Shown here: piece by piece, positions 30,001 through 39,000 of the stretch | Layout: each line of letters starts with the position of its first letter | Position numbering within the stretch: the first letter of the stretch is position 1 | Source: a virus | Taxonomy: Duplodnaviria; Heunggongvirae; Uroviricota; Caudoviricetes | Length of the DNA stretch: 64,000 nucleotides | Reading direction: 5' to 3' (one strand) | IMG/VR virus record: IMGVR_UViG_2877962823_000010 | Program-made: the position numbers

Positions 30001-33000
30001 GTATATTTGGATATAAGAAAGCCATCCAATACTGGCTGAAAAAACTCCTCATCGATATCATCGTGGGCCTGAATAGTTCCATCCGCAATTCTGATTGCCG
30101 GTATTGTTCCCCGGCGATAAGGGGTGAACATCATCCCGGTTACATCAGATCGCCTAATAACATATCAAGATTATTTTGCTCATAAATGCTATTCGCCATT
30201 ACCGTTGCTGCTTCAGCTTAATGAAACGCATAGATCCGCCATGCTTTTTCAGCAAATACGCTGCCATTTGCGCAACTTTTTCTTCATTAAACATAAATCG
30301 GCTCTCTGTATCACATGAAATGCTCTTCTGACTATATGTTAATAGCTCCGGTTATTACAGGTCAATGAGTGTTTATTTCTTAATCAGCCCCGCACTTCCG
30401 TACGGGGCCATTTCTGTTAATCCACTCCCACTTTTTTGTTGTACTCGCGGTTAAACCGATCCACGGCAATTTTCATATCCCGCTCTACCGATTTCACCAT
30501 CGCCGACTGTTGCGCCAGACTGAGAGTACTGTCGGCGTAAATGGCATCACGCTGTTTACGCAAATCCTTCAGTCTCTTCCGGGTATCCTGCATAAGCCCG
30601 TTCATCGACAATTTTCCGTTGTTCTCGTCAATGAACGCCGTTCTTTCTGCACCGGTCAGACTCTTCAGCTCTGCGTGATACTGCGCAATCTCTGTCATCC
30701 GGTCGTACATCTTCTGCTGGTCTGCATACGGCATCACCTCCCCCGAAATTTTCCCCAGGAAGGGCACCTGCTGTTCCGGTATATCAATACCATTCAGCGA
30801 TTTCACCGCCGCATCCGTGGTTTTGGAAATGAAGCGCCCTGTCCCTCCGGAGATATAGTCAATCCAGAATTTCAGCGATTCCGGTGTGATATCCACCGCG
30901 CCGGGACGGTACTGGCTGCCACCTGAGAACGCATTCAGCCAGGATGCAAACGCCTTGTACGCTTCTGGCGTTGAACGTCTTCCCAGCTGGCTGTCAGGTT
31001 TTGGTGTACCAAACGGCATGTTCTCCTGGTAAATCTGCGCCCCCATGAAGTTTTCATTCATGGCAAGGTTCGCAAACGGACGCAGAATGGTCGGCGCTGC
31101 ATTTTTCAGCAATGCCCCGGACAGTGTTTCCGACGTCTCACTGCCAATCGGGCTGAATGCACCAAGCACACCACCAACAACATTACCGGCAGCACGGGAC
31201 GCCGTCAGGTCACCCGCCGCCACACCTTCAGCAGTATGCCCGAGCAGGAAGAAAACGTTGTACCCGTAAGGCAGAGGAATACTCCAGTACTCTCCGGCCT
31301 TGCCCCCGAACACCGATTTCATAATGACGAGGTTACGCTCTTTCACATGAGACGGCACCTTGTCATACCAGTTAACCCCGTCATCATCCTCACCCGCCAC
31401 GCTGCGGTTAAGCGAGCCAAGCAGATAACCTGCTCCCACAGCGGCAAGCGCGATTTTCTGCGGAACATTCAGATTCTTCCAGCGAAGGCGCTCCAGTAAA
31501 GGTCCCTCACCATTAAGATGTCCGAGCGTTCTCACCAGATTTGCCGTTCCCTGAATGCTGGCGTTGGCGAACATGTACAGCGAATTCATCAGCGCCCCCT
31601 GCTCACCACGACGGTTAAAGTTCACCGTCATGTTTTTGGCAAGAGACGCCGCCTGCTGGCGTGACAAACCGGCATCACGGGCGTGCTTATAGGCAGAAAG
31701 ACGCAGAGCGTTTTCAACCGCACCGTTGGCATCCTCGACAAGGTTAAGGAACGAATTCCATGCACCGATACTCTGGCCTTTCCATCCCCCCTTCGCCAGT
31801 GAGACAAGGCGATCCATTTCCTTCTGCTGGCCTTCAAGGTCACCCATGTTAAACCAGCCGGTTTTCCCTCCGTCCTCAACAAACTCTTTCCACACCTTCT
31901 GCCACTGTGCACCTTTTCCCGTGAGGGTTTTACCACGCAGACTGGCGTATACGGCTGACATGGCAGAACGGCTGTCTTTCACCACAGCCAGGGCGGATAA
32001 GTTATCCAGCCCTTTCAGTTTACCGTCGCTCCTTCCCTGCTCCGCCTTCAGGTTCATCACCGCCGTCTGCACGTCACGGATGAAGTTACTGACCAGGAAT
32101 TCCGGGTTATACGACGTGTTCACCGTTGCCAGGAAGCGGTTAACTTTCCCCAGCGTACGAACAAAGGCATTGCTGGTTTCCGGTCCCATACTCTTCATCG
32201 CACGCATCAGGCGCGGATCATGGAGTTTGATGTAGTACGTTTTGCCGTTCTTTTTGGTGGTGAAGTACCGGTCTGCCATCATTGCCATCGGTACAGGGCG
32301 TTCGACAACTTCGCGAATGGTTTCACCAGTTTCCTGGTCCTTGCGCTCTGCAATCGTCCGCATGGTATCCGGTCTGTCATCGGTGAATACCTGCCAGTAA
32401 TCCTTGTCGGGATTATCCTGCACCAGTTTCAGGAAGGCGTTACCCACTTCGTTTTTGCGATGGCGGATCAGCGATTCGCTCAGGTCCTGTATCGCCTGAG
32501 TGGACGGAGACTGTGCCCGGGATGCACGCCCCATGGCCTGCCTGCTTTCACGTCCGCCGATGGTGAAGCCCTTACCTGTACGGGGCAGTGACACCACACC
32601 GTCAACATCCTGACCTTTCAGGGGAACGTAGTAACGGTAGGCGTTCTGCCAGGCATCCACCACACCGTTCTCTTCAAGTCCGGCCTCACGGATAAGCTCA
32701 CGGCGACGGGCCAGCATATCGTCAATAATCCCTGCCAGACGGTCATACTGTGCCTGTTTGCCACTGTTACGTACACGCTGCATGATTTCCGCCGCTTCCG
32801 CGTTGGTCATCCCCGAACCGCCGTCCGGCATTTTCGGGTTGATTTTCGCGATATGCGCGTTACGTTCCGGCGCGTGACGGGCGTAGAGGTACTCATCCAG
32901 ATCGGCCTGCGCAATTTTGTAGTCCGCCAGTAATTTAGCCAGTGGCTGAACGTAGCGCTCCTTCATCACGTTCAGGTCGTTTTCCGCCTTCCCGTGGAAG

Positions 33001-36000: not shown

Positions 36001-39000
36001 CTGTCTTCCAGCGTTTTACCCAGTGTTTCAGCAAGCTGTGCATAACGGTGTTTTGCCGCGCCCTTAATTTCTTCACCAAAGTCTTCAATTTTTTTGCCCC
36101 TGACTTCACCTCCGCGCACGGTAGCTTCCCTGTCAGTAGAGACAGTTGTTTCAGATTCAGGTGCGATTGTCTCAGGCTGCGGGATGTCACGATTTCCTCC
36201 GGCCTGTCGGCGTACTTCTGCCTGCTGTGCAAGCTCAGGCAGTGAGTCCCGTACAGTGCGGGGAAGTGATTCAGGCTGAGGCATACGAACATTACGCGCA
36301 ATGTCAGGAGCCGGTAGCCCTTCACGTACCGGTGCTGTCGCGTTCTGCGCATCCGGTGACGGCAGACCACGACGAACCATGTCACCCTCGAGTGTTTCCC
36401 CCTGGCGACCAGCGGCGTTTTCCGGTGCCGGAGCTTGTCCTTTCTGGAAACTCTGGCCCTTAACCTCACCGGTTGTGGTAAAACGACCACCACGTCCGGC
36501 CTGATTTTCATCCGGCGTACGCGCCACTTCTCCCGGTAACGGATATCCCTGTCCGGGATGAATATCGCCGGGAGCGGGCAGGCGTGGACGCTCAGTTAAC
36601 TCCTGTGCTGTCGGACCGGCATCACCTTCAGCCATCTGTGAACGTACAAGCTCCTCTGCCGTCGGCGCGTTGCCACGGGCAAGGCGGGCCTGTACCTCCG
36701 TATCATCCCCCGTGAAACCACGGAATCGCGGGTCACGCATGAACGCGGGCTGCTCCATCGGGTCAGCATCAGCAATACGCTCTCCGTCAGCCAGGGTGTT
36801 AATGGTTTCCGTTGCCACATCTTCAGAGAACGCAGGATTATCCATTTCAACGGCATACTGATTCTCGCCTTTCTTCACTACGGACGGTTTCAGGCCGGTG
36901 GCGGCGGCATTACGGAAAACATCACTCCCCATGGCGCTTTTCTCATCCGTGAAATAACGGTTGTCCGGGCGCACCTTCTCAATGCGTTCCGCTGGTCTGG
37001 ACGCACCATTCCCGTTAATTTCAATGCGGACTTCATTCGGGTCCCGGAACCGCACCGTCGGGTAAATGCTCCCGTTACCATCCTCCGCATTTTCAGGCTG
37101 TGACTGTGCTTCCGGCGTCACTTCCTGTTGTGGGCGAATGACTTCTCGTATTGCCTGAAACTGTTGTTCTTCAGTCTCGGTGCGCCCCTCTTTCTGGCTG
37201 AGTCTGCGGTATTCCTCAAGCAGTTCAGAACGCGGCTTCGCCTTCAGCTCATTCATCACAGCCTGTCGCTTCGTCTGTTCGTCCAGTTCATTCAACAACT
37301 GGCTGGCAGCTTCCCGGCGATGAGCTGCGGATGCGTCACCCTCTGTTGCCATATCCGCATCAGCATACTGCTCCAGAAGCTGCTCGCGATTCATGCCCTG
37401 CATGGATTCACGCTGCTGCGCCACCGGATCAACAGATTCTGGTTGCGGGGCTGCGTCGTCCTGCTGCACGGTTTCAGCATCACGCATGGCGGTTTCTTCT
37501 GCGGCCTGACGTCTGCCACGATATCCGGCAACCGCACCGAATGGAGCCCCCATCGCAGCACCAAAGGCTGCACCTTCGATCGTTGCGTCAGCCACGCCCT
37601 CCCACGGTGACACACCCATTCCGGCGGTCTCACGCAATGCCGTGTTTTCCTGATAGCGTGAATAGCCGCCCTGCGCCGCATTAATCGCCCCCTGTTCCGT
37701 GGCATTTCTGACAATGCCGCTTTTAACGGTCTTCGCTGTGCCTCGTGTCACCAGATTAAACAGTTGTGCGTCACCCAGTTTTGCCGCCATGGCATTCACA
37801 GCCAGCAATTCAGGATCGGTTGCCAGCTGCGCGCGCACCTCATCGGCAACACGCTCTTTTGCCAGATCCATTTTCTGGCGATCAGTAAGCTGTGCGTGCT
37901 GCGGGTCGGCGTCAATGGACAAAAACGTCTGCTGAAATTTCGGTGACTGCGCCAGCTCAGAGTAATCAGCATTAAGAACAGCATCTGCTGCCGCCATTGC
38001 ACTCTGCCCCTGTGCACTTACAGTGGAATGGGTGATCAGGCCCGCCTGGAATAAATCCGGCATTTTTTTATCGACAGCTTCTGCTGCCAGTGCCGTGGCT
38101 CTTTCCGGCTGCATCCCTGCCGCGATGTATTTTTTCTCCAGCCCGGCGGTCAGCATTTTTCGCAGTGTGACATCACCCACCTTTCTAGCCACACCGCCAG
38201 CAACCATATCAGGTACAAGCGCACCAATCAGGTTTACACCCTTCGCCACCCAGACCGCAGAATCATTATAGCCTTCGGTCATCGGCGTATTCAGCGCACG
38301 AACTGCACCCGGCGACATCTTACCGGTCAGCCATTCATCAGTGGCTTTGGCACCATCACTGACAGCCTTACCGGTTGCCTTCAGACCTTTACCGACAGTA
38401 TCAGTAACCGCGTTTTTGCCATCAGGCAGGGTATCGATGACCTCATCAGCCCCCCTGCTGCCACCGGCAAAAATATCCTGCACAGTTGCGACACCCGGCA
38501 GCCCCATACGGCTGAACTCATTTAAAATACGCGCCCCTGTTTTTACCGGGCTCTGAATCATCGCATCACCGAGTCCACGGGCCATTTCCCCTGTTCCCCG
38601 GACGGACTGGGCGAAACCTTTACCCATTGTTGGCAATACATCGCCCAGGCTGAACGACGTACTGTTATCCTTCCAGCGATTCGGATCAGAGAAAAATGCT
38701 TCATAGCTGTCAGTTTCGCCGGGTTGCTGAATGTTCAGGCTGTTACGATTCTGGTTACCGAGTTGCGCCTCAGGACGCTGTTCCTCTGAATAGGCCATAC
38801 AGACTCCATAAAAAAACCCGGCACAATGGCCGGGCATCAGGAAATGGTATTAATGGAATATCGTGAATTACTGGGCGTAATTCTGTTTCAGTCCACGGAT
38901 AAACTGAGATGCAGATGAAGCACTTTCATCTCTGGCCTGTTCCCCCCTGGCCTTTTGAATACGGAGAAAATTCGCATACCCGTTCTCCAGCAATTTCTGA

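What the first reader, a model, noticed from the sequence alone, without database searches (positions are those of the whole stretch)
30417..38798. 2793-aa virion protein with two zincin-like HExxH motifs
A single 8.4-kb ORF at the distal end of the structural operon, preceded by an intrinsic terminator, contains two HExxH motifs (ALAHEWFHSLD and LRHEIIHHAMEH) in otherwise unrecognisable sequence. Giant multidomain polyvalent proteins are known in phages, but the domain content here is not something I can assign, and putative metallopeptidase modules suggest an injected effector or anti-defence role.
Basis: partly seen in the sequence, partly recalled or inferred. Interest (0 to 1): 0.5.

Follow-up and report, generated by a model that had tools for sequence, protein, structure and literature searches.

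The report
Giant packaged polyvalent protein of Stx phages

Summary
The ORF is real: minus strand, 30417-38798, 2793 aa. It has the stated terminator just upstream and two HExxH motifs, where composition predicts 0.04. The window is a 933W/VT2-Sakai-type Shiga-toxin podophage. The gene is 100% identical to VT2-Sakai orf71 and 933W L0134, and 97% identical at protein level to the phi24B protein that the preprint calls gp47. A 2026 preprint found gp47 in virions by mass spectrometry (93.6% coverage), absent from the cryo-EM map, and proposed it as an ejection protein.

What I add:
- The second protease domain has no Pfam model but is conserved in more than 400 clusters, mostly giant proteins.
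- The N-terminal module is homologous to the membrane-binding N-terminal domain of the phage N4 virion RNA polymerase.
- A ~900-aa C-terminal module is shared with Vibrio, Ralstonia, Burkholderia and Bacillus podophage giant proteins.

The likely mechanism is a packaged, ejected cargo protein. Its enzymatic targets are untested.

The parts
30417..38798 (-). Coding sequence of the giant polyvalent virion protein (2793 aa, 308 kDa, pI 8.5; stop codon included). Amino-acid numbers below follow the 2806-aa reading from 38837.
   Evidence: It is 100% identical to VT2-Sakai orf71 and 933W L0134. It is 97% identical to phi24B vb_24B_48, which the preprint calls gp47.
38810..38835 (-). Intrinsic-terminator-like hairpin GCCCGGC-CATTGT-GCCGGGT followed by T7, immediately upstream of the start codon. 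GGAG lies at 38807-38804 and the ATG at 38798.
   Evidence: The hairpin lies inside the 13-codon 5' extension used in RefSeq annotations.
37488..38390 (-). N-terminal module (aa ~150-450). It is helical and has three Gly/Ala-rich hydrophobic segments (aa 194-221, 345-363, 415-438). It is homologous to the N-terminal domain of the N4 virion RNA polymerase and to the N-terminal part of the Bcep22-type 'DarB-like' giant proteins. Proposed role: membrane-anchoring and ejection.
   Evidence: It lies near the N terminus in all 34 relatives aligned (module start at aa 34-212). Its HMM hits N4 gp50 aa 231-445 at 26.3 bits, against a best of 8.8 bits in 3000 shuffles. Ten of 13 divergent members hit phrog_2206 'virion RNA polymerase' (best E 3e-9) and 8 of 13 hit phrog_10089. 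The hydrophobic segments run in parallel with those of N4. The N4 domain inserts into nanodiscs (PMC13434306).
36123..37460 (-). Low-complexity linker rich in A/E/R/P/Q (aa ~460-905), poorly conserved.
   Evidence: Composition. Only 2-7 of 124 relatives align over aa 551-900, the poorly conserved core of the linker. N4 vRNAP has a comparable linker at aa 907-1006.
35199..36122 (-). Conserved region aa 906-1063, which opens with the 'DFGxxxxGAxK' motif, followed by LPD5 (aa 1064-1213).
   Evidence: Pfam LPD5 at E 6.5e-45. About 22 relatives align over this stretch. Consensus.
34479..35198 (-). Metallopeptidase domain 1 (aa ~1214-1373) plus LPD1 (aa 1374-1453), which together form one zincin fold. 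Key residues are H1276, H1297-E1298-xx-H1301 (HExxH at window 34935-34949), D1304 and E1388.
33738..34394 (-). Metallopeptidase domain 2 (aa ~1482-1700), which has no Pfam model. Key residues are H1564-E1565-xx-H1568 (HExxH at window 34134-34148) and E1620.
33282..33551 (-). MuF_C domain (aa 1763-1852), a phage BECR-fold predicted RNase. It is not a peptidase.
   Evidence: Pfam E 1.3e-17. K1758, H1765 and S1829 are 100% conserved in 35 sequences. That is the active His plus Ser/Thr configuration described in PMC5512222.
30420..33155 (-). C-terminal module (aa 1895-2806), including LPD38 (aa 2489-2694, window 30756-31373), which carries Gly/Ala-rich hydrophobic segments. It lies at or near the C terminus in 20 of the 21 relatives aligned. 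Function unknown; proposed to serve encapsidation or the ejection conduit.
   Evidence: tblastn finds it in about 100 Vibrio phage records (41% identity), Ralstonia Gervaise gp28, Burkholderia BcepIL02 gp70 and Bacillus Pascal gp19. A profile search found no relative among solved structures.
38868..40133 (-). Upstream partner gene (421 aa; VT2-Sakai orf70; gp48 in the phi24B preprint). It is a virion protein not placed in the cryo-EM model.
   Evidence: PHROG 601, unknown function. The phi24B ortholog had 92% mass-spectrometry coverage and 1756 PSMs. A homolog precedes the giant gene in Vibrio phage D62 (E 2e-12).

Best explanation
This is the giant internal virion protein of 933W-type Shiga-toxin podophages, a phage-type 'polyvalent protein'. 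It is made late and packaged inside the capsid essentially full length. It is probably ejected through the short tail ahead of or along with the DNA.

Its layout is a delivery chassis carrying an enzymatic payload:
- An N-terminal helical module with Gly/Ala-rich hydrophobic segments, homologous to the membrane-binding N-terminal domain of the phage N4 virion RNA polymerase. It most likely anchors the protein in the cell envelope.
- A ~450-aa disordered linker, which would let the rest pass as beads on a string.
- A payload of two different, apparently active zincin-type metallopeptidase domains (one embedded in an LPD5-peptidase-LPD1 unit) and one BECR-fold RNase (MuF_C).
- A ~900-aa C-terminal module (with LPD38) shared by a whole lineage of podophage giant proteins. 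It is probably needed for encapsidation and/or the envelope-spanning conduit.

The peptidases most likely cut the polyprotein itself after delivery to free its parts, and/or cut host proteins.

Shown: identity, domain content, conserved catalytic residues, predicted folds, homology of the modules, and presence of the ortholog in virions (from the literature). Inferred: ejection, membrane anchoring, self-processing, and the enzymatic targets.
For: - Identity: 100% to VT2-Sakai orf71 and 933W L0134. 186 Stx-phage records carry it at 90-100% nucleotide identity.
- Hallmark domains: LPD5, LPD1, MuF_C and LPD38. The definition of the class is in PMC5512222.
- MuF_C: K1758, H1765 and S1829 invariant.
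- Virion presence: the phi24B ortholog (97% identical) has 93.6% coverage, 422 peptides and 12,608 PSMs. Counts are highest in the top gel slice, and the protein is absent from the cryo-EM map.
- N module linked to the N4 vRNAP N-terminal domain. Membrane insertion of the N4 domain and the beads-on-a-string ejection model: PMC13434306.
- Chassis-and-cargo architecture: the N and C modules keep their terminal positions while the middle varies. Relatives carry a strawberry-notch-type helicase or a methyltransferase there.
- Same gene position, with mass-spectrometry-confirmed virion association, in Bcep22-like phages (PMC9144972). Same position in Vibrio, Ralstonia and Bacillus podophages.
Against: - No experiment shows ejection, membrane insertion, proteolysis or RNase activity for this protein.
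- The N4 link rests on a 26-bit HMM match with a large composition-bias term, in Gly/Ala-rich sequence. The PHROG scan supports it independently.
- The mass-spectrometry signal spreads over many gel slices. That could be processing, smearing, or degradation in a sample stored for six months, so it neither proves nor disproves self-cleavage.
- The virion evidence comes from a preprint on an ortholog, not on this exact phage.
- No strong transmembrane segment is predicted (maximum Kyte-Doolittle 1.38).
Confidence: 0.75

Rival explanations
1. The metallopeptidase activity degrades peptidoglycan so that an ejection conduit can cross the periplasm. This is the reading offered in the phi24B preprint, which attributes it to a 'MuF-C metallopeptidase domain'.
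For: The preprint proposes it. Podophage ejection proteins often carry a cell-wall hydrolase (general knowledge of T7 gp16 and similar proteins). A few N-module relatives hit a PHROG annotated as endolysin (5 of 13), so some family members may be fused to lysins.
Against: MuF_C is a BECR-fold RNase family, not a peptidase. No lysozyme, transglycosylase, M23, M15 or NlpC/P60 family is detected anywhere in the protein. The two real peptidase domains resemble lethal-factor, PPEP, MtfA and minigluzincin/SprT-type enzymes, which act on proteins.
Confidence: 0.1
2. The peptidases and the RNase are primarily host-directed effectors for anti-defence or host takeover, rather than self-processing enzymes. 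They would cleave host defence proteins or RNAs right after entry.
For: Iyer 2017 lists this as one option for polyvalent-protein peptidases and suggests host or CRISPR RNA targets for phage BECR RNases. Catalytic residues are strictly conserved. Related proteins swap in helicase and methylase cargo typical of anti-restriction.
Against: No target is known. There is no hit in the PADLOC defence-system models, which is uninformative for counter-defence. The peptidase domains sit between other domains, as expected for processing enzymes. This rival is not exclusive of the best explanation.
Confidence: 0.3
3. It is a purely structural component (internal core or ejection tube, or a tape-measure-like ruler) whose enzyme-like domains are inactive relics.
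For: The protein is abundant in virions. The large N and C modules have no enzymatic signature. The preprint proposes a conduit role.
Against: The zinc-binding and catalytic residues of both peptidases, and the His/Ser pair of MuF_C, are 90-100% conserved across relatives of 20-50% identity. Relics would not be. The phage is a short-tailed podovirus with no tape measure, and the protein is absent from the tail reconstruction. There is no tape-measure family hit.
Confidence: 0.1
4. It is a DarB-type anti-restriction protein, as its relatives in Burkholderia and Ralstonia phages are annotated. It would protect incoming DNA by methylation.
For: It shares the C-terminal module, including LPD38, and the N module with proteins annotated 'DarB-like antirestriction'.
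Against: The DarB core (adenine methyltransferase, SF2 helicase and LPD36, per PMC5512222) is absent. No methylase or helicase family is detected. The shared parts are the chassis, not the DarB enzymes.
Confidence: 0.03

Closest known systems
phi24B vb_24B_48 (gp47 in the 2026 preprint), 933W L0134 and VT2-Sakai orf71 (NP_050570.1): the orthologous protein of short-tailed Stx phages
   Same: It is the same gene. It is 100% identical to the VT2-Sakai and 933W versions and 97% identical at protein level to the phi24B version. The phi24B protein is in virions by mass spectrometry, is not seen in the cryo-EM map, and is proposed as an ejection protein.
   Different: Nothing substantive. The preprint lists LPD5, LPD1, LPD38 and MuF-C, and calls MuF-C the metallopeptidase. 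Here the two real peptidase domains are mapped elsewhere (aa ~1214-1405 and ~1487-1627), and MuF_C is read as an RNase fold.
Phage-type polyvalent proteins (Iyer, Burroughs, Anand, de Souza, Aravind 2017, PMC5512222)
   Same: It is a large multi-enzyme polypeptide encoded among virion genes. [quoted passage not shown] It combines phage BECR/MuF-C RNase and LPD domains, and LPD38 is restricted to phage-type members. Peptidase 1 matches the described clade with a His at the end of strand 2 and an Asp three residues after HExxH.
   Different: That paper reported that searches with the N-terminal region of N4 vRNAP recovered only related phages. Here the N module of this protein and its relatives does match that region.
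Phage N4 virion RNA polymerase gp50
   Same: It is a giant (3500-aa) capsid-packaged, ejected protein. It has a homologous N-terminal membrane-associating domain, a long low-complexity linker after that domain, a multidomain beads-on-a-string body, and a zincin-like peptidase domain in its C-terminal part. It is encoded next to smaller ejection proteins.
   Different: There is no RNA polymerase domain here. The C-terminal modules are unrelated: the C-module HMM does not hit N4. The N4 peptidase region is not detectably close to either peptidase here.
'DarB-like antirestriction' giant proteins of Bcep22-like Burkholderia phages and GP4/Gervaise-like Ralstonia phages (4.5 kaa)
   Same: The gene holds the same position at the end of the virion module in phages whose portal, capsid and head-closure proteins are homologous to those of 933W. 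The proteins are virion-associated by mass spectrometry. They share the N module, peptidase 2 and the ~900-aa C module.
   Different: Those proteins are annotated 'DarB-like antirestriction' and, at ~4.5 kaa, are ~1,700 aa longer; their central domains were not scanned here. The Stx-phage protein carries the LPD5-peptidase-LPD1 unit and MuF_C instead. C-module identity is only 26-31%.
Phage P1 DarB and DdrB
   Same: They are head-packaged proteins delivered with the DNA. DdrB has a C-terminal zincin-like peptidase thought to process it.
   Different: There is no methylase, helicase or ParB domain here, and no detectable sequence relationship beyond the zincin superfamily.

Membership tests
Phage-type polyvalent protein (Iyer 2017) | Several unrelated globular or enzymatic domains in one very large polypeptide | tested here: met
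   Seven or more modules in 2793 aa: N module, LPD5, peptidase 1 with LPD1, peptidase 2, MuF_C, and the C module with LPD38.
Phage-type polyvalent protein (Iyer 2017) | Encoded among late or virion genes of a (pro)phage | tested here: met
   It is the last large gene of the structural operon in the identical VT2-Sakai record. Relatives hold the same position.
Phage-type polyvalent protein (Iyer 2017) | Packaged in the virion and transferred into the host with the DNA | not testable with these tools
   Packaging is shown for the 97%-identical phi24B ortholog by mass spectrometry. Transfer into the cell has not been shown for any ortholog.
Zincin-like metallopeptidase (gluzincin type), domain 1 | HExxH on a helix, plus a downstream Glu on a later helix as the third zinc ligand | tested here: met
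   H1297, E1298 and H1301 are at least 90% conserved and E1388 is invariant in 59 sequences. The two helices are at aa 1295-1311 and 1386-1404 in the model. Metal-site geometry was not measured.
Zincin-like metallopeptidase (gluzincin type), domain 1 | Core fold: N-terminal helix, three-stranded sheet, two C-terminal helices | tested here: met
Zincin-like metallopeptidase (gluzincin type), domain 2 | HExxH plus a downstream Glu, conserved across the family | tested here: met
   H1564 is 99% conserved; E1565, H1568 and E1620 are 100% conserved in 143 representatives.
Zincin-like metallopeptidase (gluzincin type), domain 2 | Zincin core fold | tested here: inconclusive
Zincin-like metallopeptidase (both domains) | Zinc-dependent peptide-bond hydrolysis | not testable with these tools
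   Needs biochemistry.
MuF_C / phage BECR RNase | [quoted passage not shown] | tested here: met
   Pfam MuF_C at 64 bits against a cut-off of 27.6. H1765 and S1829 are invariant in 35 sequences.
P1 DarB-type anti-restriction protein | LPD36, adenine methyltransferase and SF2 helicase triad | tested here: not met
   None of these is detected by Pfam, NCBIfam or PHROG function.
N4-like virion RNA polymerase | T7-like single-subunit RNA polymerase domain | tested here: not met
   There is no polymerase family hit. Only the N-terminal domain is shared.
Tail tape measure or tail structural protein | Tape-measure family match, long-tailed virion, location in the tail | tested here: not met
   There is no tape-measure hit for the giant protein. 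The host phage is a podovirus. The protein is absent from the tail reconstruction.
Cell-wall-degrading ejection protein | Lysozyme, transglycosylase, M23, M15 or NlpC domain | tested here: not met
   None is detected.

The most novel reading that the evidence does not exclude
The N-terminal module, shared with the N4 virion RNA polymerase and the Bcep22-type giant proteins, may be a general delivery chassis of podophages. In the 933W, Vibrio, Ralstonia and Burkholderia lineage it would work together with the ~900-aa C-terminal module. Any cargo placed between the two modules would be carried through the tail and tethered at the inner membrane: a polymerase, a methylase-helicase, proteases or an RNase. 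In Stx phages the cargo is two proteases and an RNase, released by self-cleavage. That cargo could help explain how these phages establish themselves in many E. coli backgrounds, a step that matters for the emergence of new Shiga-toxin-producing strains. The smaller virion proteins encoded just upstream (gp48, gp50 and gp51 in phi24B) would be the co-ejected conduit, like N4 gp51 and gp52.
Probability: 0.3. Interest if true: 0.55.

Novelty: already known. Interest (0 to 1): 0.3.

Why it matters
Short-tailed Stx phages spread Shiga-toxin genes, and this gene takes up about 15% of their genome. It is conserved at 90-100% identity in all 186 Stx-type phage records matched, yet its function has never been tested.

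The analysis gives precise targets for experiments:
- two mapped catalytic centres, H1297/E1298 and H1564/E1565;
- an RNase centre, H1765/S1829;
- a membrane-anchor candidate related to the N4 polymerase's N-terminal domain.

It also corrects a domain mislabel in the current literature. None of this changes the category: the protein is a known polyvalent virion protein.

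Tried and rejected
- Whole-protein phmmer against PDB sequences found nothing (best E 0.8, a chance match).
- A profile of the C module against PDB gave only a weak YqbN match (E 0.034), treated as chance.
- A profile of the N module against PDB found nothing.
- PADLOC defence models gave no hit.
- Pfam scans of peptidase 2 and 28 homologs gave only faint Peptidase_M76 matches (E about 0.1) in 4 of 29.
- Profile-profile comparison of the two peptidase domains was not significant (probability 5%). It aligned in register over strand 2, strand 3 and HExxH, so the two are not close paralogs.
- Foldseek against PDB for the peptidase 2 model gave no significant hit.
- HMMs of peptidase 1, peptidase 2, MuF_C and the C module did not hit N4 gp50.
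- The upstream 421-aa protein matches its Vibrio phage counterpart (E 2e-12) but not convincingly the Ralstonia Gervaise gp27.
- I looked for the N-terminal peptide in the phi24B proteome file to settle the start codon. It was not found in the stored, truncated text.
- Per-slice peptide positions, which would reveal discrete cleavage products, are not in the part of the supplement I could read.
- The word-indexed protein search returned mostly short assembly fragments for peptidase 2. The exhaustive representative search was needed.
- The tape-measure, DarB and peptidoglycan-hydrolase readings were considered and rejected on domain content.

Full report
**Observation.** The window contains one very long ORF on the minus strand, 30417-38837, which is 2806 aa from the first ATG.

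The second ATG is the more credible start, for three reasons. It is preceded by GGAG at 38807-38804. The 13 extra codons are themselves a terminator-like hairpin at 38835-38816 (GCCCGGC/GCCGGGT) followed by seven T. PHROG 616, whose profile has 2793 positions, aligns from residue 14.

Both motifs are present: ALAHEWFHSLD (HExxH at aa 1297-1301; window 34935-34949) and LRHEIIHHAMEH (aa 1564-1568; window 34134-34148). Composition predicts 0.037 HExxH in a protein of this size, and two are found.

**What the window is.** The gene is 100% identical to the corresponding gene of VT2-Sakai (orf71, NP_050570.1, annotated in RefSeq as 'LPD5 domain-containing protein'), of 933W (L0134) and of many O157 Stx phages. 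186 phage records carry it at 90-100% nucleotide identity. These are short-tailed phages of the genus Traversvirus. The window itself is a wrapped genome of about 57.4 kb: bases 1-6571 recur at 57430-64000.

**Domain content.** The sequence is not unrecognisable. Pfam assigns four domains (numbering of the 2806-aa form):
- LPD5, aa 1064-1213, E 6.5e-45
- LPD1, aa 1374-1453, E 1e-23
- MuF_C, aa 1763-1852, E 1.3e-17
- LPD38, aa 2489-2694, E 7.7e-48

All four were defined in the 2017 survey of 'polyvalent proteins' by Iyer and colleagues. These are giant multi-enzyme proteins that phages and conjugative elements deliver together with their DNA. [quoted passage not shown]

**First HExxH.** It lies between LPD5 and LPD1. 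I aligned the segment with 58 homologs of 32-64% identity. H1297, E1298, H1301, D1304 and H1276 (in 'AAAHYE') are at least 90% conserved, and E1388 (inside LPD1, 'EMAARAFE') is invariant.

This is exactly the pattern Iyer et al. describe for a widespread phage-type clade: a His at the end of strand 2 and an Asp three residues after HExxH.

So LPD1 is in effect the C-terminal half of this peptidase. The unit LPD5-peptidase-LPD1 also exists as stand-alone proteins of about 330 aa.

**Second HExxH.** It lies in a stretch with no Pfam family. An exhaustive HMMER search of 1.84 billion cluster representatives found 417 homologs at E<=1e-3. Nearly all are proteins of 1,500-6,000 aa. In 143 of them, at 20-50% identity, H1564 is 99% conserved and E1565, H1568 and E1620 are 100% conserved. 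That is the HExxH...E signature of gluzincins.

The two peptidase profiles are not detectably related to each other beyond the core motif. They are two different clades, not a duplication.

**MuF_C.** According to Pfam and Iyer et al., this is a phage BECR-fold predicted RNase, with a His in the first helix and a Ser/Thr in strand 4. In 35 relatives K1758, H1765 and S1829 are invariant, so the domain looks active. The 2026 phi24B preprint calls MuF-C 'a metallopeptidase domain' and builds a peptidoglycan-degradation idea on that. That label is not supported. No cell-wall hydrolase family is present anywhere in the protein.

**Chassis and cargo.** Mapping the protein against 149 related giant proteins shows a modular pattern:
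- an N module (aa ~150-450) that lies near the N terminus in all 34 relatives aligned;
- a poorly conserved A/E/R/P/Q-rich linker (aa ~460-905);
- a variable middle;
- a strongly conserved C module (aa 1895-2806, including LPD38) that lies at or near the C terminus in 20 of the 21 relatives aligned.

Relatives carry other cargo in the middle, for example a strawberry-notch-type helicase or a methyltransferase.

Among isolated phages the C module occurs in several groups:
- about 100 Vibrio phage records (41% identity);
- Ralstonia GP4/Gervaise-like phages;
- Burkholderia Bcep22-like phages, where the 4.5-kaa protein is annotated 'DarB-like antirestriction';
- Bacillus Page/Pascal phages.

In the four genomes inspected (Vibrio D62, Ralstonia Gervaise, Bacillus Pascal, Burkholderia JC1) it is the last large gene of the virion module. 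In Bcep22-like phage JC1 the protein is virion-associated by mass spectrometry, and the portal, capsid and head-closure proteins are homologous to those of 933W (PMC9144972). The Stx-phage protein lacks the methylase-helicase core of DarB, so it is not a DarB.

**Link to N4.** An HMM of 35 N modules matches aa 231-445 of the phage N4 virion RNA polymerase (26.3 bits; E 2.4e-4 for a notional database of one million). The best of 3000 shuffled N4 sequences scored 8.8 bits. Independently, 10 of 13 divergent N modules hit the PHROG of N4-like virion polymerases (best E 3e-9), and 8 of 13 hit the Bcep22 'DarB-like' PHROG. Three Gly/Ala-rich hydrophobic segments lie at parallel positions: 194-221, 345-363 and 415-438 here, against 225-271, 347-368 and 421-456 in N4.

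For N4, a 2026 study predicts membrane-spanning helices at aa 224-278, shows that the isolated N-terminal domain inserts into nanodiscs, and notes a 100-aa low-complexity linker after that domain. It proposes that the protein leaves the capsid as beads on a string and stays tethered to the inner membrane (PMC13434306). Iyer et al. had reported that searches with the N4 N-terminal region recovered only related phages. This link therefore appears to be a small addition to what is published.

**Virion evidence from the literature.** The phi24B ortholog is 97% identical. In the preprint's proteome file it has 93.6% sequence coverage, 422 peptides and 12,608 PSMs, second only to the major capsid protein. 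PSMs are highest in the top gel slice (2188). They remain high in the next slices above the 80-kDa portal slice (1686, 1187, 1260) and tail off below.

So the whole polypeptide, with all its domains, is in the particle, mainly as a very large species. The spread could reflect partial processing, smearing, or degradation in a sample stored for six months, and it does not settle self-cleavage. The protein is not seen in the cryo-EM map, and the authors propose an internal ejection protein.

The products of the genes just upstream are also in the virion proteome but are not modelled or discussed: gp48, gp50 and gp51 in phi24B, which correspond to window 38868-40133, 40405-40851 and 40854-41585. 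A homolog of the 421-aa protein precedes the giant gene in Vibrio phage D62.

**Mechanism.**
- *Shown:* identity, domains, conserved catalytic residues, predicted folds, module homologies, and packaging of the ortholog.
- *Inferred:* the protein is ejected through the tail. The N module anchors it in the envelope, as in N4. The linker allows domain-by-domain passage. The peptidases cut the polyprotein and/or host proteins after entry. The RNase acts on host or phage RNA. The C module serves encapsidation or the conduit.
- *Terminator:* the hairpin in front of the gene would be read through by Q-modified polymerase during lytic growth. In the lysogen it could shield the gene from transcription coming from the lom region. 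That is my inference from lambdoid late-gene regulation and was not tested.

**Rivals.**
- A peptidoglycan-degrading role is contradicted by the domain content.
- A purely structural role is contradicted by the strict conservation of three catalytic centres.
- A tape-measure role is excluded, because the phage is a podovirus, there is no family match, and the protein is absent from the tail map.
- A DarB function is excluded by the missing methylase-helicase.
- Host-directed versus self-directed proteolysis cannot be separated with these tools.

**Verdict.** It is nevertheless a known protein of a known class. It is annotated in RefSeq, described as a polyvalent ejection protein in a 2026 preprint, and fits the 2017 definition feature by feature. 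The additions here are refinements:
- exact mapping of two distinct zincin domains, one of them lacking any Pfam model;
- correction of the MuF-C label;
- the N4-type N-terminal module;
- the chassis-and-cargo layout;
- the upstream virion proteins as likely partners.

I rate interest at 0.3.

Noticed in passing
window 1-6571 and 57430-64000: The window wraps around: its first 6571 bases recur exactly at an offset of 57429. It is therefore a genome of about 57.4 kb read past its end (a circular or permuted record).
   Followed up: partly
window 38868-41585, minus strand (ORFs 38868-40133, 40144-40395, 40405-40851, 40854-41585): Four small or medium genes of unknown function lie just upstream in the same operon. 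In the phi24B proteome file, three of their orthologs (gp48, gp50, gp51) are clearly in virions (1756, 143 and 551 PSMs). None is placed in the cryo-EM model or discussed. They are candidate co-ejected proteins, by analogy with N4 gp51 and gp52. The 243-aa one weakly matches a 'virion structural protein' PHROG.
   Followed up: partly
window 38799-38837, minus strand: RefSeq and GenBank start the gene at the upstream ATG (2806-2807 aa). That reading translates straight through the terminator hairpin and has no ribosome-binding site. ATG 38798 with GGAG is the likelier start. The N-terminal peptide was not found in the stored part of the phi24B proteome file.
   Followed up: partly
literature: bioRxiv 10.64898/2026.04.10.717836: The preprint labels MuF-C as the metallopeptidase and infers peptidoglycan degradation from it. 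Pfam and Iyer 2017 class MuF-C as a BECR-fold RNase. The real peptidase domains lie elsewhere in the protein and are not mentioned.
   Followed up: yes
inside window 30417-38837, both strands; L007 6192-6515, 8667-9047 and 9398-9769: Older records annotate many small 'hypothetical proteins' inside or antisense to the giant gene, up to 19 in AP005153 and three antisense ORFs in phi24B. These are almost certainly annotation artefacts, given the uninterrupted 8.4-kb frame and 93.6% peptide coverage of the ortholog.
   Followed up: partly
window 29522-30416: The late operon ends here. A 62-aa ORF annotated in the identical VT2-Sakai record follows the giant gene, and a minus-strand terminator-like site lies at 29956-29936. 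They face a plus-strand YgiW/YdeI-type OB-fold gene (29522-29866), which has its own terminator at 29882-29904. A gef/MokW-like toxin gene lies further on in the VT2-Sakai annotation.
   Followed up: no
proteins P0084, P0085, P0088 and similar: The unit LPD5 + zincin peptidase + LPD1 also occurs as free-standing proteins of about 330 aa on many metagenomic and genomic contigs. It therefore behaves as an independent functional cassette. I did not examine their gene neighbourhoods.
   Followed up: no
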